Below, in pieces: positions 1-10,741 of a stretch of DNA of 20,000 nt. The notes under the pieces are model-generated. The model searched no databases and was not told the DNA's origin. It saw only the letters and a list, made by a program, of their open reading frames with translations. The DNA is from an uncultured virus (IMG/VR IMGVR_UViG_3300008450_000021) (taxonomy: Duplodnaviria > Heunggongvirae > Uroviricota > Caudoviricetes), in IMG/VR virus record IMGVR_UViG_3300008450_000021; one strand, 5' to 3'. Positions within the stretch are counted from its first letter, which is position 1. The number at the start of each line of letters is the position of its first letter. The position numbers were made by a program, and so were the translations under genes.

Positions 1-622
1 CTGCTTCAGTATACATTCTATGAAACCAGTTACCTACACCATTAGGTGAAGATAAAGCTATAATACCACCACCAGTAGCAATTGTAGGTTTAATACTCGT
101 GTATATTTTATCAATACCCTCGATAAACGCAGCCTCATCCACTATTAGTAAAGATACTGCGTATGATCGACCAGCATCGGATGCTGCTGATGTAGCTACG
201 ATTTGAGAGTTATTAGCTAATTTAAGTGATAATTTGTTATCGGAAATAGGTTTTTGATTACCTCTTAACCAACTAGGAAGATTGTTATACATAAACTGTA
301 CTTTTTCAACCATGCCTTTAGCGGTTTCTTGTTTAGTAGCGATACATAGTACTGTTTTATCTTTATGGAATAACATAGTCCATAATGAATATCCAGCTAC
401 TAGAGTTGATATACCTAACTGGCGAGATTTATTGATGATAGTAAATCTATTATCTCGAATATCTTGTAATGTATCGGCCTGAAATGGATATAGGTGAAAT
501 AGTACTCGTCCTTTTACAGGATGGGTTATATAACAATATTTACGAAAAAAATGGATTGGATCAGTAGCACATTTAATGTATTCTTGCTTTATGATCTCCT
601 TAATTTGTTGTTGATTACTCAT
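1..622 (-). CDS. terL: Terminase large subunit, N-terminal ATPase domain (T4 gp17-like); runs off the left edge
   Basis: Manual translation from ATG at 622: MSNQQQIKEIIKQEYIKCATDPIHFFRKYCYITHPVKGRVLFHLYPFQ...INKSRQLGISTLVAGY...SLLIVDEAAFIEG...ALSSPNGVGNWFH. Contains the adenine-binding YPFQ, P-loop KSRQLGIST, Walker B LLIVDEAAF and motif III SSPNG. Not in the ORF track because it has no stop within the window. Confidence 0.95.
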   Translation of the reverse strand, partial: MSNQQQIKEIIKQEYIKCATDPIHFFRKYCYITHPVKGRVLFHLYPFQADTLQDIRDNRFTIINKSRQLGISTLVAGYSLWTMLFHKDKTVLCIATKQETAKGMVEKVQFMYNNLPSWLRGNQKPISDNKLSLKLANNSQIVATSAASDAGRSYAVSLLIVDEAAFIEGIDKIYTSIKPTIATGGGIIALSSPNGVGNWFHRMYTEA

Positions 623-643
623 ATACTACACAATGTGTTGTAT

Positions 644-651
644 ATAAATAT
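644..651 (-). promoter_or_regulatory. ATATTTAT motif (putative phage late promoter) upstream of terL
   Basis: Minus strand TATATTTATA, about 21 nt upstream of the terL ATG; the same 8-mer recurs at eight other gene boundaries. Confidence 0.5.
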
Positions 652-679
652 ATAAGATTTATTATCTCAAATAAGATAT

Positions 680-1342
680 TTATTTTACTACAAGTATTAC
701 AGTTAAAATAGCAGCAACAGCAGTTACGGCCTTAGTACTTAATTTTAAAAGCTTATTTTGAGTATTTACTTTAGTATACTCTTTATTTAAAGTATTATAC
801 TTTACATCTTGTAAAGATATGATATTTTGTTGTGCTGTATCTTTTATTTGGAACGAGTGTATAGTACTGTCTTTAATGACTATCTGTTGACCTAATACAG
901 TGTTAATACTATCAGCATATGATAAATCTTGTCTATCACCATCACAATATAATAGATCACGAGCAGCACCTACTGCTGATTCCTTAGGTAAAGAAAATGC
1001 TGTTTTATCTTCAGTTGGGTATCTGTCTACAAAAAATTTATGTAATGTATCTGAATTAGATAAATTAGGGTTATTTGCTTTTTTATTAGCTTCAGCTCTA
1101 GCTTTATTTCTTTCTTGGGCTAAATAAACTACTTGTTTTGCTAAAGCTGAGTCCTTTTTAGCTAAACCAGCAATAATTAAATTTTGTTCGTCTACAATTA
1201 TTTTTTCAGAATCAATTACTTTATTCAAGCTATCTATTGTTTGTTGAAATTTAGCGTCCGACGGACCATTACAAACAGAATAAGTAGTAAGTAAAATACC
1301 TACTACTATTCCTATTAATAACCATATTAATTTATTTGTCAT
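680..1342 (-). CDS. Membrane-anchored coiled-coil protein, possibly spanin-like
   Basis: N-terminal hydrophobic segment LIWLLIGIVVGILL followed by Cys24, long predicted helical/coiled-coil middle, and a C-terminal hydrophobic segment AVTAVAAILTVILVV. Confidence 0.55.
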   Translation of the reverse strand: MTNKLIWLLIGIVVGILLTTYSVCNGPSDAKFQQTIDSLNKVIDSEKIIVDEQNLIIAGLAKKDSALAKQVVYLAQERNKARAEANKKANNPNLSNSDTLHKFFVDRYPTEDKTAFSLPKESAVGAARDLLYCDGDRQDLSYADSINTVLGQQIVIKDSTIHSFQIKDTAQQNIISLQDVKYNTLNKEYTKVNTQNKLLKLSTKAVTAVAAILTVILVVK

Positions 1343-2235
1343 TTTATTATATTTGCTAACTTTTGGAACCGTTCCATTATTTCATCTTCAGATGGAGCGT
1401 TTTTTTCTTGTTCTACTTTATTTCTAACGTATTCGTTTGAATCAATTATACTTTGAACACGTTGTTCAAGAGATGCTTTTAATTTAGTTAAACGTTCTAC
1501 TTCGCTTGAACCTAATGATAAATCATCTCTACTTTTACCCATTTTTTTAGCTTGTGTTAATGCACTTTTAGTTCTAGCTAAACGTTCTTTAAATTTAGAA
1601 TAATCCATCCAAGCATTATAATCTTCATCTGATAATCCTCCTACTGATGGTCTGTCCATTGGTAGTTCTGGCATTTCTGGCTCTTCCTCTTCTTCAGGTT
1701 GAGGCATACCAGATGGGAAAAATTCACCTGTTCTTCCACCTATGAAAAAATCTTCCATACTGGGTGGTCCTGAGACTGTTTCAGGTTCACTAACTACTGT
1801 AGTCTCTCCCGTTTCATCATCCACTACTACTTCACCCATTTTAGCTATAACACCGGCATCTTTCAAACCATTCATTAACGCATTTGCTATTTGTGGACGA
1901 ATAAAGTTAAATTGATCTTGGATATCTTTCTTTTCTACACCTGGATTCTCTTTAATGTAATTAATAACATCAGCTACTGACACACCACTAATCATTTTAG
2001 TAGCATATGGTGTGGTATCAAATTCAGGATCAACAATTTGGTATCCTTTAGCTTTACGAGCCATTTCCGTTACTTTTTTATATTTTTGTTGAAAAGCAGA
2101 AGATTTTTCTGTATTATCATCAGGATCAATTACTGACGATAAACCTTTAGTGGCATCTGTTGGATTTTTTAATGTATATAATCCTACTTCTGATATTACT
2201 TCTTTAACTACGGCACGAATTTGTTTCGGGGTCAT
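1339..2235 (-). CDS. Hypothetical acidic/Pro-rich protein with N-terminal leader; possible HTH; putative virion-internal protein
   Basis: The ORF track starts at 2262, but that ATG overlaps the ATATTTAT motif. ATG at 2235 gives MTPKQIRAVVKEVISE, matching the shared leader. The central VINYIKENPGVEKKDIQDQFNFIRPQIANALMNGLKDAGVI looks winged-helix-like; the C-terminus is MERFQKLANIIK. Confidence 0.65.
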   Translation of the reverse strand: MTPKQIRAVVKEVISEVGLYTLKNPTDATKGLSSVIDPDDNTEKSSAFQQKYKKVTEMARKAKGYQIVDPEFDTTPYATKMISGVSVADVINYIKENPGVEKKDIQDQFNFIRPQIANALMNGLKDAGVIAKMGEVVVDDETGETTVVSEPETVSGPPSMEDFFIGGRTGEFFPSGMPQPEEEEEPEMPELPMDRPSVGGLSDEDYNAWMDYSKFKERLARTKSALTQAKKMGKSRDDLSLGSSEVERLTKLKASLEQRVQSIIDSNEYVRNKVEQEKNAPSEDEIMERFQKLANIIK

Positions 2236-2260
2236 GATGTTTGCGTTTATTTCTGTATAC

Positions 2261-2268
2261 ATAAATAT
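2261..2268 (-). promoter_or_regulatory. ATATTTAT motif (putative late promoter)
   Basis: Minus strand TAATATTTATG immediately after the kinase stop codon, about 25 nt before ATG 2235. Confidence 0.5.
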
Positions 2269-2792
2269 TAGTTTATTTGGGAAAGTATTGAATTGATGCG
2301 TTCTTCTGTAGAACCTTTAATTTCTATTAATTTTTTAGGTGGATATTGTTGTAGTAAACCTTTTATAACAAAATCAATTTTTTGACGATATTCTGCATCC
2401 GTTATGCGCACACCGTTGTCTTCAATATCAACGCCTTCAGGTGATACATAAATTATAACGTCATAATCACCTCTAATTATTAAAAATGATTCAATTAATT
2501 TTATTTTATCTTCCCAACTAATTGACTTAGCACTCATAGTAAATGCACACACATCATATATTGTTCTGTCTGTCAATAAATCATCATGCATTAATTCTAA
2601 ACTGCGTTCTGCCGCAAACACAAATTGTCCTTTAGTTGTTGAGTCGTCATTTAATAAGATTCCTTGATCACGTAAATATTTACTACGTTCTGTAGCTACA
2701 TGATAATCTTTAAATTGTTCTAATTTGGCTAGCTCTTTAACTAAAGTGCTTTTGCCTACTGATACTGTTCCTGCTAATCCTATTCGTGCCAT
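2268..2792 (-). CDS. P-loop NTPase / nucleotide kinase-like protein (AAA_28, NadR kinase-like or dNMP kinase fold)
   Basis: N-terminal Walker A GTVSVGKST, the LLTDRT motif typical of NMP/dNMP-kinase folds, and IEDNGVR plus IKGSTEER as seen in AAA_28 proteins. Confidence 0.8.
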   Translation of the reverse strand: MARIGLAGTVSVGKSTLVKELAKLEQFKDYHVATERSKYLRDQGILLNDDSTTKGQFVFAAERSLELMHDDLLTDRTIYDVCAFTMSAKSISWEDKIKLIESFLIIRGDYDVIIYVSPEGVDIEDNGVRITDAEYRQKIDFVIKGLLQQYPPKKLIEIKGSTEERINSILSQIN

Positions 2793-2798
2793 ATTTTT

Positions 2799-3482
2799 TT
2801 ATATTTTAAATTTCCAAATAAATCCTCCTGCTGTTTTTTGTTTACCTTTACAGCAAGCCTGTATATCTCCTTTTCCTATATATTTTTTAGCTTCAACAAT
2901 TGAAGGCCATTCTTGAATAAAATCACCTTCTAAATTATATTGGTTAATTGGTTTACTATTAGCTAATCTTACTCCTTTTATTATATTGTCTTTTTTTAAT
3001 TTTATGTTATTTTTATGACTTTCAGATTTAAATTTTCCTATAGCTGATTTTCTCATTTTTTCTTTTGTTATCTCAGATGGAAACTTTCCTATCATTGATA
3101 TTCTTTTTTTATTTTTAGTTTCATTAGAAACTATTTTTCCTTTATTAGATTTACTAATTTTATTTTTAGTTTCTTCTGATCGAGGTCCTGTTCCTCTGTC
3201 GTATAATTCACAAAACAATACTTGTTTCCAATCTCCATTTACTTGATCTAAATAATATTGTTTCCAATATATTTCTCTTTCATTTAATTGTTCTAAATTG
3301 CATTCTTCAATTATTTCAAATATGTGTTGTTCCCAACCATATTTTTGATATGAATTATATAGTTTAGAACCTATATGAGATTTACTTTTATGTTTATGTT
3401 GGTATTTTCTATTTTGTATATTAATAGATTGTCCTACATAAATTTTACCTTTAGGATTTGTTATTTTATATATTCCTGTCAT
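2799..3482 (-). CDS. Free-standing GIY-YIG homing endonuclease with NUMOD3-like repeats and a C-terminal NUMOD1-like HTH
   Basis: MTGIYKITNPKGKIYVGQS...R...LNEREIYW catalytic module; repeats SEETKNKIS / SNETKNKKR / SEITKEKMR / SESHKNNIK; C-terminal KPINQYNLEGDFIQEWPSIVEA...IQACCKGKQKTAGGFIWKF. Confidence 0.9.
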   Translation of the reverse strand: MTGIYKITNPKGKIYVGQSINIQNRKYQHKHKSKSHIGSKLYNSYQKYGWEQHIFEIIEECNLEQLNEREIYWKQYYLDQVNGDWKQVLFCELYDRGTGPRSEETKNKISKSNKGKIVSNETKNKKRISMIGKFPSEITKEKMRKSAIGKFKSESHKNNIKLKKDNIIKGVRLANSKPINQYNLEGDFIQEWPSIVEAKKYIGKGDIQACCKGKQKTAGGFIWKFKI

Positions 3483-3488
3483 ATGATA

Positions 3489-3496
3489 ATAAATAT
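3489..3496 (-). promoter_or_regulatory. ATATTTAT motif (putative late promoter) before the homing endonuclease
   Basis: Minus strand TATATTTATT, 6 nt before ATG 3482. Confidence 0.45.
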
Positions 3497-3506
3497 ATAG
3501 GAATAC

Positions 3507-3755
3507 CTATTTCCCGTTAGAAGGAGAAGTAAGTCCCAAAGCTCTAGCTCTCTGGTAGGAAACATATTTACCATTTGCTGGGTTTAAATATTTTTTATCT
3601 GTTTTATTGTCTTTAGTATTTTCTACAGTTCCTAAATACTCTTTAGGATAAGACGTAGTTGTTTCAATAGGTCCACTAGTGGATTTATTTAAATCATATT
3701 TCCAAACACAAGTAGTACCATCATCATTAATAAACGTTCTTGTAAATTGTTTCAT
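3507..3755 (-). CDS. Hypothetical protein
   Basis: 82-aa ORF in the gene-dense strand with its own promoter-like site immediately upstream. Confidence 0.7.
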   Translation of the reverse strand: MKQFTRTFINDDGTTCVWKYDLNKSTSGPIETTTSYPKEYLGTVENTKDNKTDKKYLNPANGKYVSYQRARALGLTSPSNGK

Positions 3756-3759
3756 GTTA

Positions 3760-3791
3760 TAAAGATAAAAAAAGGGTCTTGACGACCCTAA
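3760..3791 (-). promoter_or_regulatory. Bacteroidota sigma-A-like promoter (-33/-7)
   Basis: TTAG-ggtc-GTCAA-N11-TATCTTTA, 4 nt before ATG 3755. Confidence 0.5.
3767..3789 (-). terminator. Intrinsic terminator
   Basis: Minus strand AGGGTC-GTCAA-GACCCT (6-bp stem) followed by a T-run, just after the stop of ORF 3795..4037. Confidence 0.6.
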
Positions 3792-3794
3792 TTT

Positions 3795-4037
3795 TTAAAC
3801 TCTTGCTCCTGTATTTTTACCTATAGCGGTTTTAAACCATGGTAATCCATTAGTATCACGTTTACGGTCTATCCAATCCTCTTTTGAATATTGAATACCG
3901 TAGATATAATATTCTGCTAATTTCATGTTACCTTGAGGGATTAAGGCTGGGCCATCCCAGTTATGGAGCTTATTTACTCCTGTTGTGTCACTATAATGTA
4001 ATATAGTACCGTCTTTCGTTCTAAAAGTTCTTGTCAT
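3795..4037 (-). CDS. Hypothetical protein with an LHxxDGPA motif
   Basis: KLHNWDGPALI...EYYIYG resembles the LHRxDGPA repeat unit seen in large phage and giant virus proteins; single copy here. Confidence 0.75.
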   Translation of the reverse strand: MTRTFRTKDGTILHYSDTTGVNKLHNWDGPALIPQGNMKLAEYYIYGIQYSKEDWIDRKRDTNGLPWFKTAIGKNTGARV

Positions 4038-4056
4038 ATTTTTACTTTCTTTTTTC

Positions 4057-4087
4057 GAAAGTTAATATTTCTTTTTCACTAATCCAA
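4057..4087 (-). promoter_or_regulatory. Bacteroidota sigma-A-like promoter
   Basis: TTG-N20-TAACTTTC upstream of ATG 4037. Confidence 0.45.
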
Positions 4088-5095
4088 GCCTGAAAGTTCG
4101 GTATCATCTTTCTTCAGATCTACCTCAATTTCTTTCATCGTGTCTGCTGCCCATTTCTTTTGAGCTGGGGTTAATTTATTATTAATGATGTTTTCTATAA
4201 ATAGAAGGAAATTTTTATCGTCTAATTTATATACTTCAGCAAAGAATAATTCACGAACACGAGCATCTTCTATATTACTTTGGTTATATAAGTTTGATAA
4301 AGCATCATAAATAAATTTACCATATTGAAAATCACGAGGTTCGTTTGATACTTTATCTACTTTACCAACAATAGCTTTATTTTGTTCTTTATCAGTTCCA
4401 AATCCTTCTGTTCCTACTATTTCATATAATCCTTTTACTATCTCATGAAATAACATAGGAAAACATATAGCTCTTGCTTTAATAACAAATCTATCTTCTT
4501 CTTCATCATACACCATTTCAGATGATCCACCACTAATATTTTGTTTTTGACCAAGAGCCGCTAACATCATAGCGATAGCATTCTCATCATCATATATACC
4601 AAAAACTAGTTTCATTATTTCGTTGTATTTTTCAACTAATTCCGGACTTAAATCATCTAAATGTTCTCTAAATAATAAGAAACCAAAAGTTCCACGTACT
4701 GATGCGCCTTGAGTGATACCGTTGATTATACGGCGTTTTTTCTCCATAGCTTCGGTATCAGTTGATGGTATTTCGTCTATAGATATTTCATCTTCATCTT
4801 CATTTTGTTGAACTTGACCCATACTTACTATTTTAGCATCTATTTTTACATTAGCATAATCTAAAATAGGGTAAGCTTCTCTAGCCATAATTTCAGCTAT
4901 CATTGCTAATTCAATACGGTAATCAGATTCAGCCTCAATAATTTGACTTAGTAATTCCTGAGAACGCATCATTGTTTGCATTAGATTTTTGTTACCTAAC
5001 ATAGCACGCAATGATTCACCTGACTTACCTTTTAAGGCAGCCATTGTTTCAGGGCTGAATATATCTTCGTATTCTACTTCTAATAAACGTTTCAT
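4079..5095 (-). CDS. Hypothetical acidic protein, putative virion protein
   Basis: 338 aa; short leader MKRLLE; KKRRIINGITQG and PMLFHEIVKGLYE segments (a degenerate HExxK). Confidence 0.75.
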   Translation of the reverse strand: MKRLLEVEYEDIFSPETMAALKGKSGESLRAMLGNKNLMQTMMRSQELLSQIIEAESDYRIELAMIAEIMAREAYPILDYANVKIDAKIVSMGQVQQNEDEDEISIDEIPSTDTEAMEKKRRIINGITQGASVRGTFGFLLFREHLDDLSPELVEKYNEIMKLVFGIYDDENAIAMMLAALGQKQNISGGSSEMVYDEEEDRFVIKARAICFPMLFHEIVKGLYEIVGTEGFGTDKEQNKAIVGKVDKVSNEPRDFQYGKFIYDALSNLYNQSNIEDARVRELFFAEVYKLDDKNFLLFIENIINNKLTPAQKKWAADTMKEIEVDLKKDDTELSGLD

Positions 5096-5568
5096 TATTT
5101 TGTTTTTTTAGCTTTCATAAAACGAGCAGTAATCTTATCAATCATTTCCTCTTCCTTTAAATTTTTAGGAGCAGGTTTTACATCAGGATTACCAATTCTT
5201 CTACGTTTAGGTTCGTCTGGAGTCACTTTAGGTCTAGGTAAAACTGCTGGTTCACTTGGTGTAGTAGCTGGTTTAGGTTGATTTTCGTTTAGTTCTTTAC
5301 GAATTATTTCACGAATAGCTTCGCGTAGTTGTTTAATTTTCATATTTTCTTTTAATTTAGTTCTAGGTAATTTCATTCCTGCTACCGCAAAATTTGATGG
5401 AATTAGGTTTAGGCGTTGCTCTAATGCATTATCAGGAGCAATGGCGCGTTTTTCAACCCATAACCATTTAAGATATTGTGGATCAATTATCATTATATCA
5501 GATACTAATCGGTTTTTATATTTACCAAATGGTATTTTAGATGATAATGTTAAAGTAACAGGGATCAT
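5095..5568 (-). CDS. DUF3820/exonuclease X C-terminal-like (PFGKYK) domain fused to a leader-bearing Pro-rich peptide
   Basis: N-terminal IPFGKYKNRLVSDIMIIDPQYLKWL; an internal ATG at 5343 begins MKIKQLREAIREIIRKELNE, followed by a Pro/Lys-rich tail. Confidence 0.65.
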   Translation of the reverse strand: MIPVTLTLSSKIPFGKYKNRLVSDIMIIDPQYLKWLWVEKRAIAPDNALEQRLNLIPSNFAVAGMKLPRTKLKENMKIKQLREAIREIIRKELNENQPKPATTPSEPAVLPRPKVTPDEPKRRRIGNPDVKPAPKNLKEEEMIDKITARFMKAKKTK

Positions 5569-6920
5569 GCCAATAAATATTCAGCAACATATATTCCATG
5601 CGCTCCTGATACTGTGATACCACGAGCTGATAAAGCATCACCAACAAAATGCACATTTGGATATTCAGTTAATGCTAAACTATTATAATCAACTAATGGT
5701 TCAGGACTTAAATATTTTACCTCGGGTATATACATGCCCCAGTCATCACCAAAGTTAAATACTTCATTCATTTGTTCAATAAAGTTAGTTATATAAAATG
5801 CATACTTACCTAATACTTTATCAAAATCTTCTAAATCATCAGTTTGATATGCTGATACAACTGCGCCTTCTGATGTTATACCTGGCGTACGAGTTTTATT
5901 TGGTGAATAATATAATCCTTTACCATCAACTTGTAACTGTCCTACTACATGACGTGACCACTCAAACGGATTTTCAATACCTTTAATTTCCATTAATATA
6001 CCAAAATTAGTCATATCATTGCGATACTCTTCACCTTTTTTCGCATGACCATTGTAAGTAATATCACCATAAGTTTCTTCAACAGCCACATAGGCAGCGT
6101 TATTGTTAGTACAAAAACTACGCAAAGATACGTTATCAAATTTTTGATATAGTTTAAAATCATAAGAGACATCAATTAATTTTTGGAAATATTTTTGTGG
6201 TGCTTCAAAACGAACACCTATTTGAACTGATTTGGGTTCAGTTGGTAATTTATAATCATTTGATAGCTGTTGAGCAAAGTCAATACCTGATTTACCTACA
6301 GCAAATATGAGAGTATCATATTCGATCTCAGTGTTAATATAAGGTCTAAAATTAGCCAATCCGCTTTCTTTTCCTAATTTATCAAATCTATCTACTATTG
6401 TATTATCGACAAATAATACTATTTGTTTATCAAAATCAATAGATGTAACTTCACAATTCCAACAAAATTTAACACCTTTATCTAACAAATATTGATACCA
6501 TGCTTTAGCAATCTCGTGCAAGAAATTGGATCCTATGTGCCATACAGGAAACATTCTTAAACCAAAATATGGTTTAATAAATTCAGGTTCTTCCTGAGGA
6601 TCAGACATGAATATTTCTTCTGGTTTAGGATGGAAACGAGTAAAATTATCTACTACTTGTTTCATTAATTCCATTGCTTTGTCCTCACCACAATATTTTG
6701 ATAATTGACCTCCAATTGCTGTGTGATAAGTAAGTTTACCATCTGACCACCCACCTGCTCCTAACATACCTGTCATTACCTCTTCAGGTAAACGATTATG
6801 TGGGTCGTTGCCTTTATCTATGATAGTGATTAATTCACCTGGGTATCCATTGTCTACTAATTTGGTAGCGGCATTTATACCTGCAACACCAGCACCTACG
6901 ATTACTATTTTTTTATTCAT
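5565..6920 (-). CDS. FAD-dependent oxidoreductase (uncharacterised FAD-dependent dehydrogenase, COG2509-like)
   Basis: Rossmann motif IVIVGAGVAG, GMLGAGGWSDGKL, IGVRFE, RSFCTNN, NGHA, and a C-terminal HFVGD...RGITVSGAHG FAD-binding motif. Confidence 0.85.
   Translation of the reverse strand: MNKKIVIVGAGVAGINAATKLVDNGYPGELITIIDKGNDPHNRLPEEVMTGMLGAGGWSDGKLTYHTAIGGQLSKYCGEDKAMELMKQVVDNFTRFHPKPEEIFMSDPQEEPEFIKPYFGLRMFPVWHIGSNFLHEIAKAWYQYLLDKGVKFCWNCEVTSIDFDKQIVLFVDNTIVDRFDKLGKESGLANFRPYINTEIEYDTLIFAVGKSGIDFAQQLSNDYKLPTEPKSVQIGVRFEAPQKYFQKLIDVSYDFKLYQKFDNVSLRSFCTNNNAAYVAVEETYGDITYNGHAKKGEEYRNDMTNFGILMEIKGIENPFEWSRHVVGQLQVDGKGLYYSPNKTRTPGITSEGAVVSAYQTDDLEDFDKVLGKYAFYITNFIEQMNEVFNFGDDWGMYIPEVKYLSPEPLVDYNSLALTEYPNVHFVGDALSARGITVSGAHGIYVAEYLLA
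5573..5580 (-). promoter_or_regulatory. ATATTTAT motif (putative late promoter)
   Basis: Minus strand GAATATTTATT within the last codons of the oxidoreductase, 4 nt before ATG 5568. Confidence 0.4.
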
Positions 6921-6926
6921 ACTTTA

Positions 6927-6957
6927 TAAATTTAATATCTTTATTTTGACTTTCAAA
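6927..6957 (-). promoter_or_regulatory. Bacteroidota sigma-A-like promoter of the oxidoreductase
   Basis: TTTG-aaa-GTCAA-N11-TAAATTTA (19-nt spacer), 6 nt before ATG 6920. Confidence 0.55.
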
Positions 6958-6962
6958 CTAAG

Positions 6963-7035
6963 GTGGCCCACCTTTTAGGGGTGGGCCACAGCTCCATAAT
7001 TTTATCTCTTACGAGCGACCGGCTATGAATCGGTC
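6963..7035 (-). ncRNA. Candidate structured RNA (hairpin with pseudoknot, GNRA hairpin and 10-bp hairpin); family unknown
   Basis: GC-rich island within an AT-rich intergenic gap: GACCG/CGGTC stem whose loop CATAGC is complementary to downstream GCTGTG; CTC-GTAA-GAG; perfect 10-bp stem GTGGCCCACC/GGTGGGCCAC. The strand is inferred from gene context and the GNRA loop. Confidence 0.5.
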
Positions 7036-7051
7036 TATAAATTATTTATTT

Positions 7052-7423
7052 TTATATCATCTTTATATTAGCTACAAATTCTTTTACGTAATTATCTATT
7101 TTATTTTTCTGTTTTTCGGCTTCTTCTTTAGTAAATAATGTTACTTTAATATCCCCCATAGGATGATTAAATAAATCATTTTTAGTTTTATATTGAGCCG
7201 GGATACTACTCCCGTCTTTGTATGTACCTATAAAATATCGTCTAACTTTATCTCCATATATTTTATCAACGTTTATATCGTTAATATTTACTTCTAAGTC
7301 TTTTAACTTATTTATAGTTTTTTCTACTTGTTGATATTTTTTAAGATCCTCTACAGGAATTAACTCAATGTAGTATTTTTTATTACTATCTATTTCTTGG
7401 ATTATGTTTACTAACTTAATCAT
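7052..7423 (-). CDS. Hypothetical protein with MIKL-type leader
   Basis: Starts MIKLVNIIQE; start overlaps the upstream stop codon (TAATG). Confidence 0.75.
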   Translation of the reverse strand: MIKLVNIIQEIDSNKKYYIELIPVEDLKKYQQVEKTINKLKDLEVNINDINVDKIYGDKVRRYFIGTYKDGSSIPAQYKTKNDLFNHPMGDIKVTLFTKEEAEKQKNKIDNYVKEFVANIKMI

Positions 7424-7860
7424 TATTGTACATTATATTCGTTATTACCAATTTTTAGTTTAGTAATAGTATTAACGTTTATCATTCTGTATCCACCTGT
7501 TTTTACATCATATACAGGAATTAATCCTTTTTCATCTGGATTGTAAGGTAATTCGCCACCTTTTAAATAAACTTTAACACCTAAACGAGCATTCATTACG
7601 CGAGTAGTACCATCTTTTTTAATAAAAGTTACAGTAAAAAACTTACCTTTAGTATCTTTAATTAATTGTTTAGCTTGTTCTTTAGTAATAGACCCAGCTG
7701 GGGTTTCAGGAGTTTCAGCTTCTGATGGTGCTTCTTCTGGTGAAGGAACATTAGCTGGTTCTTGTCCCGGTCCTGGGGTAATAGGAGGTAAATCTTCTTG
7801 TTCTTTAAGATATTGAGATATAGTTTCTCTGATTAATTGGCGTAATACTTTGCTGTTCAT
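7423..7860 (-). CDS. Leader + Pro/Glu-rich linker + SH3-like beta-barrel (WYL_2/DUF2693-like) domain
   Basis: MNSKVLRQLIRETISQYLKE leader; C-terminal GKFFTVTFIKKDGTTRVMNARLGV...LIPVYDVKTGGYRMIN typical of phage SH3/WYL_2-like proteins. Confidence 0.7.
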   Translation of the reverse strand: MNSKVLRQLIRETISQYLKEQEDLPPITPGPGQEPANVPSPEEAPSEAETPETPAGSITKEQAKQLIKDTKGKFFTVTFIKKDGTTRVMNARLGVKVYLKGGELPYNPDEKGLIPVYDVKTGGYRMINVNTITKLKIGNNEYNVQ

Positions 7861-7875
7861 TTTTATTGTTTTTTA

Positions 7876-7908
7876 CAAAGATAATAAAGGTACCTTGCCA
7901 ATAAATAT
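7876..7908 (-). promoter_or_regulatory. Tandem ATATTTAT motif and Bacteroidota -7 element
   Basis: Minus strand ATATTTAT-t-GGCAA-N11-TATCTTTG; the latter is a perfect TAnnTTTG. Confidence 0.55.
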
Positions 7909-8645
7909 TATAAAGCTATATTCTCAGCTGTTTTTTCAGATACAGTGTGATATCTACCGCATTTTTTACATTGCATTTGTACACGAATTGTTCCTAATGC
8001 TGACATTCTACGTTTAGAGAATGTCCATTTATTTGAACCGCATGTAGGGCAATCTGTTTTGTCTTCACTAACGCTACTTTTTTCAGGAAAATGTGGTGCT
8101 AATTTATTGTATACTTTTTCTAACAATTCAACATCACCTTTACAATATTCTACCATTTTTTCCATGGCTTCTTTATCTTTATTTAAGACAATGTCTTTCC
8201 ATAAATTAAAACCAGTGCTGATTTTAGCACCTAAACCTAAAAACTGAGCAATGTAATCTAATTTATTGCTATTAAATTTAAATTTAGATCTGGCGTATTT
8301 TAACGTATCTATTGTAGTATATGACGGAAATAAAGAGATGCCATGATATAGGCATCTAGTTCTAACCCACGGTAAATCGTATTTATCACCGTTATGTCCT
8401 ACTAATTCATCAGCTTCATTAGCTATTTTAATGAATTTTTCTAGTAGACTTTTATCGTTTTGTTTAGCATCCCAAGTTAAAGAGTGTACTTCTTTTTCGT
8501 CAGCCCATTTGTAACAAATACAAATGATAGCTCTTTCTTTTATAATATTGTCGTGACCTATATTTAATCTATAACCTGCGGTCCAAAACAAACCAATGTT
8601 TGGGCTTGTTTCAATATCAAAAAAGAGTCTTTTTACTTTACTCAT
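7908..8645 (-). CDS. RNase H-like / DnaQ-family 3'-5' exonuclease (RNase_H_2/YprB-like) with C-terminal zinc ribbon
   Basis: ExoI FFDIETS, ExoII VGHNGDKYDLP, TIDTL, KLDYIAQFLG, ExoIII YCKGDV; C-terminal CPTC...CKKC. Confidence 0.88.
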   Translation of the reverse strand: MSKVKRLFFDIETSPNIGLFWTAGYRLNIGHDNIIKERAIICICYKWADEKEVHSLTWDAKQNDKSLLEKFIKIANEADELVGHNGDKYDLPWVRTRCLYHGISLFPSYTTIDTLKYARSKFKFNSNKLDYIAQFLGLGAKISTGFNLWKDIVLNKDKEAMEKMVEYCKGDVELLEKVYNKLAPHFPEKSSVSEDKTDCPTCGSNKWTFSKRRMSALGTIRVQMQCKKCGRYHTVSEKTAENIAL

Positions 8646-8657
8646 ATGATTTTTTTT

Positions 8658-8689
8658 AAAATATAAAACTTATTTTTTGCCTATCCAAA
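8658..8689 (-). promoter_or_regulatory. Bacteroidota sigma-A-like promoter of the exonuclease
   Basis: TTTG-gata-GGCAA-N11-TATATTTT (20-nt spacer). Confidence 0.5.
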
Positions 8690-8691
8690 TT

Positions 8692-9219
8692 TTAGGCAGC
8701 AGGAGTTTCCTCAGGTGCTGGCGTTTCTTCAGGGGTAGGTACTTCTGAAGGTGGGGCTTCAGGTGTTGGAGGAATACTTCCTGCTTCTAAATCAGCTTTA
8801 ATATCAGTATTACGTTGTGATGCTAATTCTTCTGCTGACTCTTTAGGAGCATAATTTAGTTCAAGTAAATCTGCTATTGCTTGTGATGCTCTTTCAGATT
8901 CTCCTATGTTAATTGGATTATATTTTTTTCCAGATACTTTTACAACAAAATTATTTTTTCCTAAATATATCATTGTAAAGTCTTGTCCATTAATTAACCC
9001 AATACCAAATGTAGTTGGTTTAGGAGCTATTAATGAAACATCTGCTATATATCGTCCAAAAGCAGGTGACATTAATTCTTCTAATGTTTTCTTCAAACCA
9101 GGAAAGCGATGTATTAAATACATTGCTTTTTCAGCTTGTTTTTGTTGCTGTTCTTCTTCCTTTAAAGCCATACGAACAGCTTTTTTAATATATTTTTCTA
9201 ATAACAGAGTCTTATTCAT
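8692..9219 (-). CDS. Hypothetical protein with leader and Pro/Glu-rich C-terminus
   Basis: Starts [21 protein letters not shown]; ends in [25 protein letters not shown]. Confidence 0.75.
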
Positions 9220-9679
9220 CGTCTCTTAATTCATGAAAACCTTGAGCTGCTTGCTCAATATAGTTTTCAGCATTGGTAATATGATCTTGAATCCATCCTG
9301 GGATGTTACGTTCTACTGTTCCTATCTTTTGAGACAATTCCATAGCTGCTTTAGCAATAGCTTCTAAACTATTTTGAGCCATAGCAACTTCATGATCCAT
9401 ACCTTCTTTTTTAATATTTTTAGATATTGTCTTACGGCGATTTAAAAGATATTTATCTGTTTTATCAACTTTACCGTCATTGTTTATATCTTTATCTTCT
9501 TTACCTACTGGGTCTAAAGCTTCTTCTTTTTTACCTTTACCCATGGCTTTAGCTGTAGCTATAGGACCTGCTTTTTCAGGAGACATCCCTGAGTCAACTA
9601 AGGCATCGTAAATTTCTCCACGCTTTTTCTTTTGGCTAGGAGTCATTTTTTTCTCTAGTAAATCGATTAATTTTATCAT
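9212..9679 (-). CDS. Leader-bearing protein with an EF-hand/dockerin-like Ca2+-binding loop
   Basis: Starts [21 protein letters not shown] fits the DxNxDGxxDxxD pattern. Confidence 0.75.
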
Positions 9680-10053
9680 TTTAAAAAGCGTAATTTATAG
9701 ATGGTTGAATTAATAAGAGCAACAACTTCATCAATTTGATTTTGAATATATGAATCTTGGCAAAGCATTGTTCTACTTTTTTCAATATAAGAACAAAGTA
9801 CAGTAAAATACATAATGATACCTTCACAGCTTTGATATTCTTGTAAAGCAACATTTGTATACCCAGTAACGATACCGTATTTACCTTGATATGATTCTAC
9901 TATACCGTCAGTTATACCTACAATTTCATCATAATATTCATTTAATGCTTTATGAGCAGCAAATGAAGGTGTTTGTAGATGAAATACATGAGCCTGCGTA
10001 CGAGACGCCATTAACGTAGAAACAAATTGACCCATTAATGCGTTATGTTCCAT
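9676..10053 (-). CDS. Ferritin/Dps-like four-helix protein (DUF5856-like)
   Basis: [24 protein letters not shown]...[12 protein letters not shown]...QNQIDEV...TIYKLRFL, the His/Glu pattern of phage Dps-like proteins. Confidence 0.75.
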
Positions 10054-10057
10054 TATT

Positions 10058-10741
10058 TTATTTTTTAACTACTTTTTTTAGTATAGCACCAGCTACTTTT
10101 TGACCTGCTTCTTTTGAACCGTATTTTTTAGCTGCTGATTTAGCTATTTTGGCAAATCCTTTACCAGGTTTACCTACGTCTTCACCTTTTTCAAAGCGAG
10201 CTTCTTCCATTTTTTTATCATCGCCTTTTGGTAGACCTTTTTTGTAACTTCTATATGCGCTACCTATTGCTGCTCCTATTCCACCTACAGTTCCAGCAGC
10301 TGCTGCAATTTGTCCTATGAGTTCTCCTACTGAGATATTCATGGATTTGGCTAAATCTGTAAGAGGTCCCATAATTTCTGACGAGAGACCTTCGTTTATT
10401 TTTTTAGCTTCGTCTAATTCTTTTTTTTCAGATTTTTTAGGACCTTTAGAATTTTTATCCATTGTTTTTTTCTGGTCTTCTAGATCTTTTTTCTTAGTTT
10501 GTAATTCTTTAATACTAGCTTCCATATCATCCATCATATCACCTATAATTTCTGAGGAAACATAATATTTTAAACCATCCATTGATGTTAATGCTGTTTT
10601 AACAGACATAGCATCTTTAATATCTTCGTCTACTTTTTTAATTTTAGCTTCCAAAGCAGCTATATCACCAGCCTCGTCTATCATTTTGATACGGTCAGCA
10701 ATTGCTTCTTTAATTAATTTCTTTAATTCGGATTGTTTCAT
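10058..10741 (-). CDS. Leader-bearing coiled-coil protein with basic C-terminus; putative virion-internal protein
   Basis: Starts MKQSELKKLIKEAI; coiled-coil segment, Gly/Ala-rich hydrophobic stretch, and Lys-rich tail GKGFAKIAKSAAKKYGSKEAGQKVAGAILKK. Confidence 0.75.
   Translation of the reverse strand: MKQSELKKLIKEAIADRIKMIDEAGDIAALEAKIKKVDEDIKDAMSVKTALTSMDGLKYYVSSEIIGDMMDDMEASIKELQTKKKDLEDQKKTMDKNSKGPKKSEKKELDEAKKINEGLSSEIMGPLTDLAKSMNISVGELIGQIAAAAGTVGGIGAAIGSAYRSYKKGLPKGDDKKMEEARFEKGEDVGKPGKGFAKIAKSAAKKYGSKEAGQKVAGAILKKVVKK

What the first reader, a model, noticed from the sequence alone, without database searches (positions are those of the whole stretch)
6963..7035. GC-rich intergenic element folding into a pseudoknot with a competing hairpin: candidate novel ncRNA or switch
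Seen (minus strand): GACCG-AUUCAUAGC-CGGUC G CUC-GUAA-GAG AUAAAAUUAUGGA GCUGUG GCCCACC-CCUAAAA-GGUGGGCCAC. The P1 loop segment CAUAGC (7022-7027) can pair with GCUGUG (6987-6992; 6 bp including one G-U) to form a pseudoknot enclosing a GNRA-capped hairpin. The GUG of that strand is also the base of a perfect 10-bp hairpin (6963-6972/6980-6989), so the two pairings partly compete. It occupies the largest intergenic gap in the window and is far more GC-rich than its surroundings. A near-match to the late motif (TAATTTATA, 7036-7044) abuts its 5' end. Inference: either a stand-alone small RNA or a cis-regulator of read-through into the FAD oxidoreductase. I could not match it by eye to a known riboswitch or ribozyme.
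Basis: partly seen in the sequence, partly recalled or inferred. Interest (0 to 1): 0.78.

Follow-up and report, generated by a model that had tools for sequence, protein, structure and literature searches.

The report
Phage kissing-loop RNA terminator switch
A small, strongly conserved folded RNA in uncultured freshwater phages sits on top of a transcription stop signal and looks built to switch that stop off, so it is probably a new riboswitch-like regulator whose trigger is still unknown.

Summary
On the window's minus strand, the 131-nt gap 6921-7051 holds a 5-bp hairpin P1. Its loop pairs 6 bp with GCUGUG, and a 10-bp GC hairpin with a U-rich tail follows.

The same element precedes the same FAD-dehydrogenase gene in related uncultured phages: 56 of 69 loci, plus 53 more found by a DNA pattern. 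It gives 106 distinct sequences.

Compensatory changes support four helices:
- P1
- the loop pairing (99% paired; three covarying pairs; an invariant U-G)
- the terminator

P2 closes a 9-nt loop carrying GCUGUG, so the pseudoknot is a kissing-loop complex. P2's 3' strand lies inside the terminator's 5' strand in 106 of 106 sequences. The two folds therefore exclude each other.

This is the layout of an ON-type riboswitch or attenuator, closest in architecture to guanidine-IV. It matches no Rfam 15 family. It is single-copy in complete ~160-kb relatives and was not found in the bacterial genomes searched.

The effector and the biological role are unknown. A promoter-like box lies between the terminator and the gene and complicates the regulatory logic.

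The parts
7036..7043 (-). Conserved 5' flank AAUUUAUA (family consensus AAYWUAYA). The A at -1 faces a conserved G just after P1.
   Evidence: of 105 sequences, -1 is A in 103, -4 is U in 98, -7 is A in 94 and -8 is A in 92. The base after P1 is G in 101. No pairing partner was found.
7017..7035 (-). Hairpin P1: GACCG (7035-7031) pairs with CGGUC (7021-7017). The 9-nt loop AUUCAUAGC (7030-7022) has CAUAGC (7027-7022) as the 5' strand of the loop-loop pairing.
   Evidence: Covariation: the five pairs are kept in 105-106 of 106 sequences with up to 6 pair types. Cells paired: 99.6% and 99.5%.
7006..7015 (-). Optional small hairpin CUC-GUAA-GAG in the linker.
   Evidence: A hairpin of varying sequence is present in some relatives. 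Others have an unstructured A/U-rich stretch instead.
6997..7005 (-). A/U-rich linker.
   Evidence: Linker length is 13-30 nt in 106 sequences. It is A/U-rich at all 8 positions before P2.
6982..6996 (-). Second hairpin P2 with the kissing loop: UGG (6996-6994) pairs with CCA (6984-6982). Its 9-nt loop is A (6993), GCUGUG (6992-6987) and GC (6986-6985).
   Evidence: P2 pairs are kept in 105, 104 and 87 of 106 sequences, with GC/CG/AU/UA all seen. The A is invariant in 106 of 106 and GC is present in 104 of 106. Shuffle control: 0 of 5000. Searches agree.
6963..6989 (-). Intrinsic-terminator hairpin: GUGGCCCACC, loop CCUAAAA, GGUGGGCCAC. Its 5' strand contains the last 3 nt of the kissing strand, the GC, and all of P2's 3' strand.
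   Evidence: 10 pairs, 8 G-C; top terminator-like site. (-21.0 kcal/mol). Covariation in 5 of 7 pairs. Overlap with P2 in 106 of 106.
6954..6962 (-). U-rich tail CUUAGUUUG.
   Evidence: In relatives, 81 of 106 have at least 5 U in the 9 nt after the predicted hairpin.
6927..6950 (-). Promoter-like box GUCAAA-N10-UAAAUUUA, ending 6 nt before the ATG.
   Evidence: the pattern occurs 19 times on the coding strand of the 54-kb contig and once on the other strand. 18 of the 19 lie 4-34 nt before an ORF start.
5565..6920 (-). Downstream gene: a 451-aa FAD-dependent dehydrogenase of unknown function (Pyr_redox_2; relatives carry PF21688).
7052..7423 (-). Upstream ORF (123 aa, no family). Its stop codon lies 16 nt before P1.
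   Evidence: Relatives carry different genes here.

Best explanation
The element is a cis-acting, effector-dependent transcription attenuator of the ON type, that is, a riboswitch-like switch.

Proposed mechanism:
- RNA polymerase arrives from the upstream gene and transcribes P1, the linker, and then UGG-A-GCUGUG-GC-CCA.
- That last segment can fold into the short hairpin P2, whose 9-nt loop kisses the P1 loop (CAUAGC:GCUGUG, with an invariant U-G).
- While this compact fold holds, the 5' half of the terminator is locked away, and polymerase reads through towards the FAD-dehydrogenase operon.
- If the fold is not held, the far more stable terminator forms and transcription stops.

Because the fold is much weaker than the terminator, it must be stabilised by something, most likely a small molecule bound at the invariant unpaired bases. 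The choice would be made during transcription.

Shown here: the four helices, their covariation, and their mutual exclusion.

Inferred: read-through control, the direction of the switch, and the existence and nature of an effector.
For: Covariation:
- P1, the loop-loop pairing and P2 pair in 98.1% (A2) and 97.4% (A3) of cells. 10 and 9 of 13 pairs change on both sides. 0 of 500 shuffles reach the covariation score. Slid controls pair in only 16-55% of cells.
- The covariance model used to collect the sequences held neither the loop pairing nor P2.
- Loop pairing in 106 distinct sequences: CG 103/UA 3; AU 87/UA 18; GC 84/GU 13/AU 9; U-G in 106 of 106.
- P2 innermost pair: GC 63, CG 18, AU 13, UA 11.

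Mutual exclusion:
- The terminator's 5' strand contains P2's 3' strand in 106 of 106 sequences and reaches into the kissing strand in 105 of 106.
- In some relatives (e.g. L233, L255, L257) a continuous stem AGCUGUGGC...GYCACAGCU plus U7-9 swallows the whole kissing strand.

Energies in the window: terminator -21.0 kcal/mol, P2 -0.6, kissing duplex about -5.9.

Linkage to one gene:
- The next ORF is the dehydrogenase in 39 of 59 and 44 of 53 instances.
- Nearly all of the rest have one gene inserted before it.
- Upstream genes differ.

Copy number: one copy in each of 3 complete ~160-kb relatives; one strong and one weak match in a fourth.

Strand: the invariant U-G pair fixes the sense strand.
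Against: - No effector is known and no binding or termination assay exists.
- A promoter-like box lies between the terminator and the ATG. The gene may not depend on read-through, which is unusual for a riboswitch.
- No promoter is seen just upstream of the element. It sits a few bases after the stop codon of variable upstream genes.
- It is tied to essentially one gene family in one phage group. That fits a protein-operated leader as well as a metabolite sensor.
- 5 of 55 related loci with at least 900 nt of upstream DNA lack it, and so does one 140-kb record.
- The window's U-tail (CUUAGUUUG) is weak.
Confidence: 0.45

Rival explanations
1. Same switch, but operated by a protein rather than a metabolite. 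A phage or host protein, possibly the dehydrogenase itself, would bind the kissing-loop fold and prevent termination, as RNA-binding antiterminators do.
For: The evidence for a switch is the same. The element is single-copy and tied to one gene family in one phage group, as autoregulatory leaders are. The invariant U-G and unpaired bases could be protein contacts.
Against: No candidate RNA-binding protein is consistently adjacent. The gene directly after the element varies: dehydrogenase, phrog_624, or HslV-like. A ~54-nt fold with few invariant unpaired bases is typical of small metabolite aptamers.
Confidence: 0.2
2. A stable small RNA, made as the 3' end of the upstream transcript or processed at the conserved AAYWUAYA flank and ended by the terminator. 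It would act in trans or as a structural RNA.
For: The element follows the upstream stop codon directly and ends in a terminator. The downstream gene has its own promoter-like box. In an RNA library, one contig of 116 letters lies on 6996-7079, that is, the upstream ORF's end plus P1; DNA carry-over is not excluded.
Against: P2 cannot coexist with the terminator hairpin that a terminated RNA would carry, yet P2 covaries with four pair types. Upstream genes vary while the downstream gene is constant. No target complementarity is known.
Confidence: 0.15
3. A constitutive terminator-plus-promoter boundary cassette. The upstream fold would only tune termination efficiency or protect the mRNA's 3' end, with no effector.
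For: The contig is full of GC hairpins followed directly by the same promoter-like box. The terminator is thermodynamically dominant.
Against: Other cassettes in the contig lack P1, the loop pairing and P2. The model finds only one copy in the 54-kb contig and one strong match in each of four ~160-kb relatives. Selection on two exclusive pairings of the same bases is hard to explain without switching.
Confidence: 0.12

Closest known systems
Guanidine-IV (mepA motif) riboswitch
   Same: Two hairpins whose loops kiss. The kissing fold acts as antiterminator against an intrinsic terminator that overlaps it. It is an ON switch decided within a narrow window during transcription (passages of PMC11611296).
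   Different: No match to any Rfam model, that one included. The conserved bases differ. The gene context is a phage FAD-dehydrogenase, not mepA or transporters. The ligand is unknown.
Small pseudoknot riboswitches with terminator platforms (preQ1-I, fluoride, ZTP)
   Same: A short P1 hairpin whose loop pairs with a 3' strand after an A-rich linker, with the 3' strand shared with the terminator. KL or pseudoknot formation on ligand binding is listed for these classes in PMC11611296. The architecture of preQ1-I is recalled.
   Different: Here the 3' strand sits in the loop of its own covarying hairpin, P2. There is no Rfam match. Association with queuosine, fluoride or purine genes was not seen in the genes examined.
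Phage T4 gene 32 mRNA leader pseudoknot
   Same: A phage-encoded pseudoknot upstream of a gene that serves one gene's regulation (passage of PMC10690425).
   Different: That one acts on translation through its own protein and has no terminator. There is no sequence likeness, and the downstream gene differs.
Promoter-early stem-loop (PeSL) cassettes of T4-type phages (recalled, not looked up)
   Same: A terminator hairpin directly followed by an early-type promoter at module borders. The contig has many such pairs.
   Different: Those are multi-copy and simple hairpins. This element is single-copy and has three further covarying helices.

Membership tests
Any Rfam 15 family | Match at the family's gathering score | tested here: not met
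   0 matches in the window at gathering. At E up to 10 on 6850-7150, 5 matches score 9.6-24.8 bits, all far below gathering. 8 relatives gave 3 unrelated matches, E 0.98-3.3.
Guanidine-IV riboswitch | Kissing loops of two hairpins that form an antiterminator overlapping a terminator | tested here: met
   Loop-loop pairing and P2 covary, and both overlap the terminator. This is likeness of architecture only.
Guanidine-IV riboswitch | Family sequence and structure model; association with mepA or other guanidine genes | tested here: not met
   No Rfam hit. Downstream genes are the FAD dehydrogenase, phrog_624 or HslV-like.
Guanidine-IV riboswitch | Binds guanidine | not testable with these tools
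   Needs in-line probing or a transcription assay.
Riboswitch (general) | Conserved structured aptamer supported by covariation | tested here: met
Riboswitch (general) | Expression platform that excludes the aptamer fold | tested here: met
   106 of 106 sequences; energies.
Riboswitch (general) | Lies in the leader of the regulated transcript | tested here: inconclusive
   It is always upstream of the same gene. However, a promoter-like box lies between the two, and no start site is known.
Riboswitch (general) | Direct binding of a small molecule that changes expression | not testable with these tools
Intrinsic terminator | GC-rich stem-loop followed by a U-tract | tested here: met
   (10 pairs, 8 G-C). 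81 of 106 relatives have at least 5 U in the 9 nt after the hairpin. The window's own tail is weak.
Multi-copy terminator/promoter cassette (PeSL-like) | Many copies per genome | tested here: not met
   One copy in the 54-kb contig. Of five large relatives, three have one match, one has a strong and a weak match, and one has none.
tRNA / tmRNA | ARAGORN detection | tested here: not met
   0 genes in the window.

The most novel reading that the evidence does not exclude
A new class of metabolite-sensing riboswitch that exists only in phages. It would be a ~54-nt kissing-loop aptamer with which freshwater Bacteroidota-type myophages read a host metabolite or stress or immune signal (for instance a redox cofactor or a nucleotide-derived messenger). 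In response they would open transcription into an operon led by an uncharacterised FAD-dependent dehydrogenase.
Probability: 0.3. Interest if true: 0.88.

Novelty: new variant of a known kind. Interest (0 to 1): 0.76.

Why it matters
Riboswitch classes found only in phages are few, and each orphan class points to a signal that cells or viruses monitor. This one has unusually clean comparative support: four covarying helices, two of them competing for the same bases. It is small enough for direct biochemistry and occurs in many uncultured freshwater phages (589 relatives of its gene in the viral collection).

Finding its effector would also assign a first function to the widespread phage and bacterial 'uncharacterised FAD-dependent dehydrogenase' family. 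The fold itself, two 9-nt loops kissing through 6 bp with an invariant U-G, would be a compact module for synthetic antitermination control.

Tried and rejected
- **tRNA/tmRNA:** none in the window.
- **Known RNA families:** none.
- **Coding:** the short frame starting at ATG 6997 is not kept. In the 18 of 106 relatives with GUAGUG, a UAG falls in that frame, and the changes are compensatory rather than codon-like.
- **Pistol-like outer helix:** a helix between the linker end and the tail after the hairpin (CUAAGG:CCUUAG in L036) is not kept in other sequences (read by eye).
- **Helix between the 5' flank and the linker:** RNAfold predicts one in the window, but no diagonal of pairing appears in 105 sequences.
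the terminator starts at the 4th base of the kissing strand, as in the window, in 43 of 106. It starts earlier in 43 and later in 20.
- **Cultured phages:**
  - No DNA match for 3.2 kb around the element (near mode).
  - No DNA match for the 101-nt element (distant mode).
  - The dehydrogenase matches only Campylobacter phages and faecal 'Bacteriophage sp.' records, at 27.5% identity or less in the 25 records listed of 47.
- **Bacterial genomes:**
  - The pattern scan stopped at 120 stretches. The 80 with fetched DNA held no real instance; the best scores were 25.7 and 22.8 bits and lacked the motif.
  - In 5 Bacteroidota genomes, the one 36.6-bit match is only a terminator.
  - 0 of 151 genomes of one family matched at E up to 0.001, under strict filters.
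  - So the element was not found in those searched; this does not show absence.
- **Metatranscriptome contigs:** there is almost no cover over 6911-6957, between cover on the element and on the gene. Contigs cannot show RNA ends, so this is not used as evidence.
- **Catalogue of 10,006 viral structured-RNA candidates (PMC10690425):**
  - The readable supplements held no FAD, Pyr_redox or oxidoreductase entry (file 4 was not included in that search).
  - File 4 held none of six contig ids.
  - The alignment archives could not be read, so prior listing there is not excluded.
- **Two 2026 preprints on noncoding-element mining:** no relevant passage.
- **Earlier notes of this scan:** nothing relevant.
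- **A preQ1-like reading:** considered from the shape only. Queuosine or deazaguanine genes were not searched for.
- **Paper search:** mis-set and gave nothing usable.

Full report
**What is in the window**

- P1 is GACCG (7035-7031) paired with CGGUC (7021-7017), around the 9-nt loop AUUCAUAGC.
- A small CUC-GUAA-GAG hairpin lies at 7015-7006.
- GCUGUG lies at 6992-6987.
- A perfect 10-bp hairpin pairs 6989-6980 with 6972-6963 and is followed by CUUAGUUUG.

The element fills the 131-nt gap between ORF 7052-7423 and the FAD oxidoreductase ORF 5565-6920. That is the largest internal gap in the window. GC reaches 0.50 here against 0.31 for the contig. The 73 nt fold at -32.6 kcal/mol, z = -4.84, and 0 of 200 shuffles fold as well. 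The consensus scan ranks the hairpin as the best terminator-like site in the window. There is no tRNA and no Rfam family, either at gathering score or at E up to 10.

**Origin**

The window lies in a 54-kb viral record estimated at 33% complete. All but 2 of 86 called ORFs are on one strand. Its primase is 44.9% identical to that of Flavobacterium phage vB_FspM_immuto, a 160-kb phage. A Bacteroidota host is therefore likely but not shown. DNA of the stretch occurs mainly in freshwater metagenome runs.

**Relatives**

The oxidoreductase has 589 relatives in the viral-contig collection; the best 80 loci were fetched. Reading their upstream DNA showed the same element behind different upstream genes.

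A covariance model was built from 51 distinct instances. It held only P1 and the terminator. I left out 11 of the 80 loci as apparent duplicates by eye. In the remaining 69 loci the model found 59 matches.
- 56 of the 69 loci have at least one match.
- 50 of the 55 loci with at least 900 nt of upstream DNA have one.
- 5 loci (L022, L027, L034, L039, L042) have none.

A separate pattern scan of viral contigs stopped at 119 stretches. The 80 that were fetched gave 53 more instances, plus 2 weak opposite-strand matches. Together this makes 106 distinct full-length sequences.

**Structure from covariation**

*P1.* Its five pairs are kept in 105-106 of 106 sequences, with up to six pair types. A sixth pair exists in 27.

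| Pair | Types seen |
|---|---|
| 1 | C-G 103, U-A 3 |
| 2 | A-U 106 |
| 3 | U-G 106 |
| 4 | A-U 87, U-A 18, unpaired 1 |
| 5 | G-C 84, G-U 13, A-U 9 |
| 6 | C-G 102, unpaired 4 |

*A new helix, P2.* The three bases before an invariant A (106 of 106), just 5' of GCUGUG, pair with bases 3-5 after GCUGUG.
- Innermost pair: G-C 63, C-G 18, A-U 13, U-A 11, kept in 105 of 106.
- Middle pair: kept in 104 of 106.
- Outer pair: kept in 87 of 106.

In the first 55 sequences the innermost pair was standard in 55 of 55, against a shuffle mean of 32.3, and 0 of 5000 shuffles reached it.

In the window P2 is UGG (6996-6994) with CCA (6984-6982). It closes a 9-nt loop, A-GCUGUG-GC. The 'pseudoknot' is therefore a kissing complex of two 9-nt loops.

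*Formal counts.* These cover the four inner pairs of P1, the loop pairing and P2.

| Measure | A2 | A3 |
|---|---|---|
| Cells paired | 98.1% | 97.4% |
| Pairs changed on both sides | 10 of 13 | 9 of 13 |
| Shuffles reaching the covariation score | 0 of 500 | 0 of 500 |
| Cells paired in slid controls | 25-53% | 16-55% |

*Caveats.*
- Related sequences can beat shuffles without any structure. The slid controls answer that.
- The A3 sequences were selected by a pattern that fixed the two loop motifs. That pattern still allowed mismatched combinations, and these were almost never seen.
- Neither the loop pairing nor P2 was in the model that aligned the sequences.

RNAalifold finds P1 and the terminator on its own. 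The terminator covaries in 5 of 7 pairs. The invariant U-G, which would be A-C on the other strand, fixes the functional strand.

**Two exclusive folds**

I folded the 3' part of each of the 106 sequences.
- The terminator hairpin's 5' strand contains P2's 3' strand in 106 of 106.
- It reaches into the kissing strand in 105 of 106.
- In 37 the predicted helix reaches the first base of that strand. In some of these a continuous stem AGCUGUGGC...GYCACAGCU is followed by U7-9 (e.g. L233, L255, L257).
- 81 of 106 have at least 5 U in the 9 nt after the hairpin.

Energies in the window:

| Element | kcal/mol |
|---|---|
| Terminator | -21.0 |
| P2 | -0.6 |
| Kissing duplex | about -5.9 |

Evolution thus maintains a weak fold and a strong fold that use the same bases. 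This is the signature of a switch that must be decided during transcription and needs help to stay in the weak fold.

**Context**

The next ORF after the element, by instance:

| Next ORF | First set, 59 | Second set, 53 |
|---|---|---|
| Dehydrogenase | 39 | 44 |
| ~160-aa phrog_624 protein (weak Pyr_excise, E 0.0047) | 14 | 5 |
| HslV-like peptidase | 0 | 2 |
| Putative homing-endonuclease-like ORF | 3 | 0 |
| Other, or cut by the locus end | 3 | 2 |

Where another ORF comes first, the dehydrogenase follows it in nearly all cases. For the endonuclease-like ORFs the support is thin. L024 has NUMOD1 below Pfam's cut-off, nothing was found for L048, and the GIY-YIG-like start is my reading by eye. 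One locus (L025) has two copies, one before each of two genes.

The element is single-copy:
- one match in the 54-kb contig
- one in each of three complete ~160-kb relatives
- one strong plus one weak match in a fourth
- none in a 140-kb record.

The dehydrogenase belongs to the 'uncharacterised FAD-dependent dehydrogenase' group. Relatives by feature and fold carry PF21688. No solved structure matches by sequence.

Two facts complicate the riboswitch reading.
- Upstream ORFs end only a few bases before the conserved flank AAYWUAYA. The element must therefore be transcribed from the upstream gene.
- Between the terminator and the ATG lies GUCAAA-N10-UAAAUUUA (6950-6927). This box occurs 19 times on the coding strand of the contig and once on the other strand, and 18 of the 19 lie 4-34 nt before an ORF. 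It looks like a promoter. Read-through would then add to, not replace, local initiation.

**Distribution**

The element was not found in cultured phages. It was not found in the 80 bacterial pattern hits examined, in 5 Bacteroidota genomes, or in 151 genomes of one family under strict filters. These are samples, so absence is not shown.

In RNA libraries from freshwater, contigs lie on the element at depth 12-24. One contig spans the upstream ORF's end and P1. This is only a weak hint of transcription, because DNA carry-over is possible.

**Comparison with known systems**

In architecture the closest is the guanidine-IV riboswitch. There a ligand-promoted kissing loop forms the antiterminator against an overlapping terminator (passages of PMC11611296). 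Small pseudoknot ON switches share the loop-to-3'-strand logic. Membership in any of these fails: there is no Rfam match and the genes differ.

I could not check whether the element is among the 10,006 viral candidates of PMC10690425, because its alignment archives were unreadable.

**Verdict**

This is a real, conserved, structured RNA (about 0.95). It is very probably a switchable terminator (about 0.65 over all effectors) and most likely a new riboswitch-like class. The effector and the physiological role remain open.

Noticed in passing
window 6927-6950 and 3760-3782; own contig G000 positions 236-10496 (outside the window): A gene-start box [GT]CAA[AG]-N9-11-TAnnTTTA occurs 19 times on the coding strand and once on the other strand. 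Often the CAAA sits in the loop of a GC-rich hairpin placed just upstream. These form terminator-plus-promoter-like cassettes that crowd the small-ORF region of the contig.
   Followed up: partly
own contig G000, upstream of many larger ORFs (e.g. window 6921-6934 region and one search list): A second box, ATATTTAT(A), lies 4-25 nt before many ORF starts. Leaders would be very short and no Shine-Dalgarno sequence is visible.
   Followed up: no
L048:1591-1932 and L048:2222-2990: Two copies of the element in one locus. The first is followed by a 74-aa ORF that begins with the first ~22 residues of the dehydrogenase and then diverges. The second is followed by a 222-aa ORF with a GIY-YIG-like start (by eye; no family found) and then the dehydrogenase. 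This looks like a rearrangement around an inserted mobile gene.
   Followed up: no
L024:922-1016: A variant in which the kissing strand itself is the 5' half of a short terminator (GAGCUGUC-UUAC-GACAGCUC-UUUU). P2 is missing and P1 has a mismatch. A 162-aa ORF with a weak NUMOD1 match follows.
   Followed up: no
L037:2452-2520: A truncated copy (P1, small hairpin and linker only) about 420 nt upstream of the full copy in the same locus.
   Followed up: no
L263:1165-1259 and L221:1165-1262 (minus strands): Two relatives have no obvious U-tract terminator. The P2 5' strand plus the invariant A (GGGA) can instead pair with a downstream UCCC. This may be a different expression platform.
   Followed up: no
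window 2799-3482 (-) and 2268-2792 (-): A GIY-YIG/NUMOD homing endonuclease gene and an AAA_28 kinase-like gene (phrog 'thymidylate kinase'; weaker match to nicotinamide-nucleotide adenylyltransferase) lie further down the same strand.
   Followed up: partly
window 6953-6997 (-): A 14-codon frame starts at the AUG inside the linker and runs through the terminator. It is not kept in relatives.
   Followed up: yes
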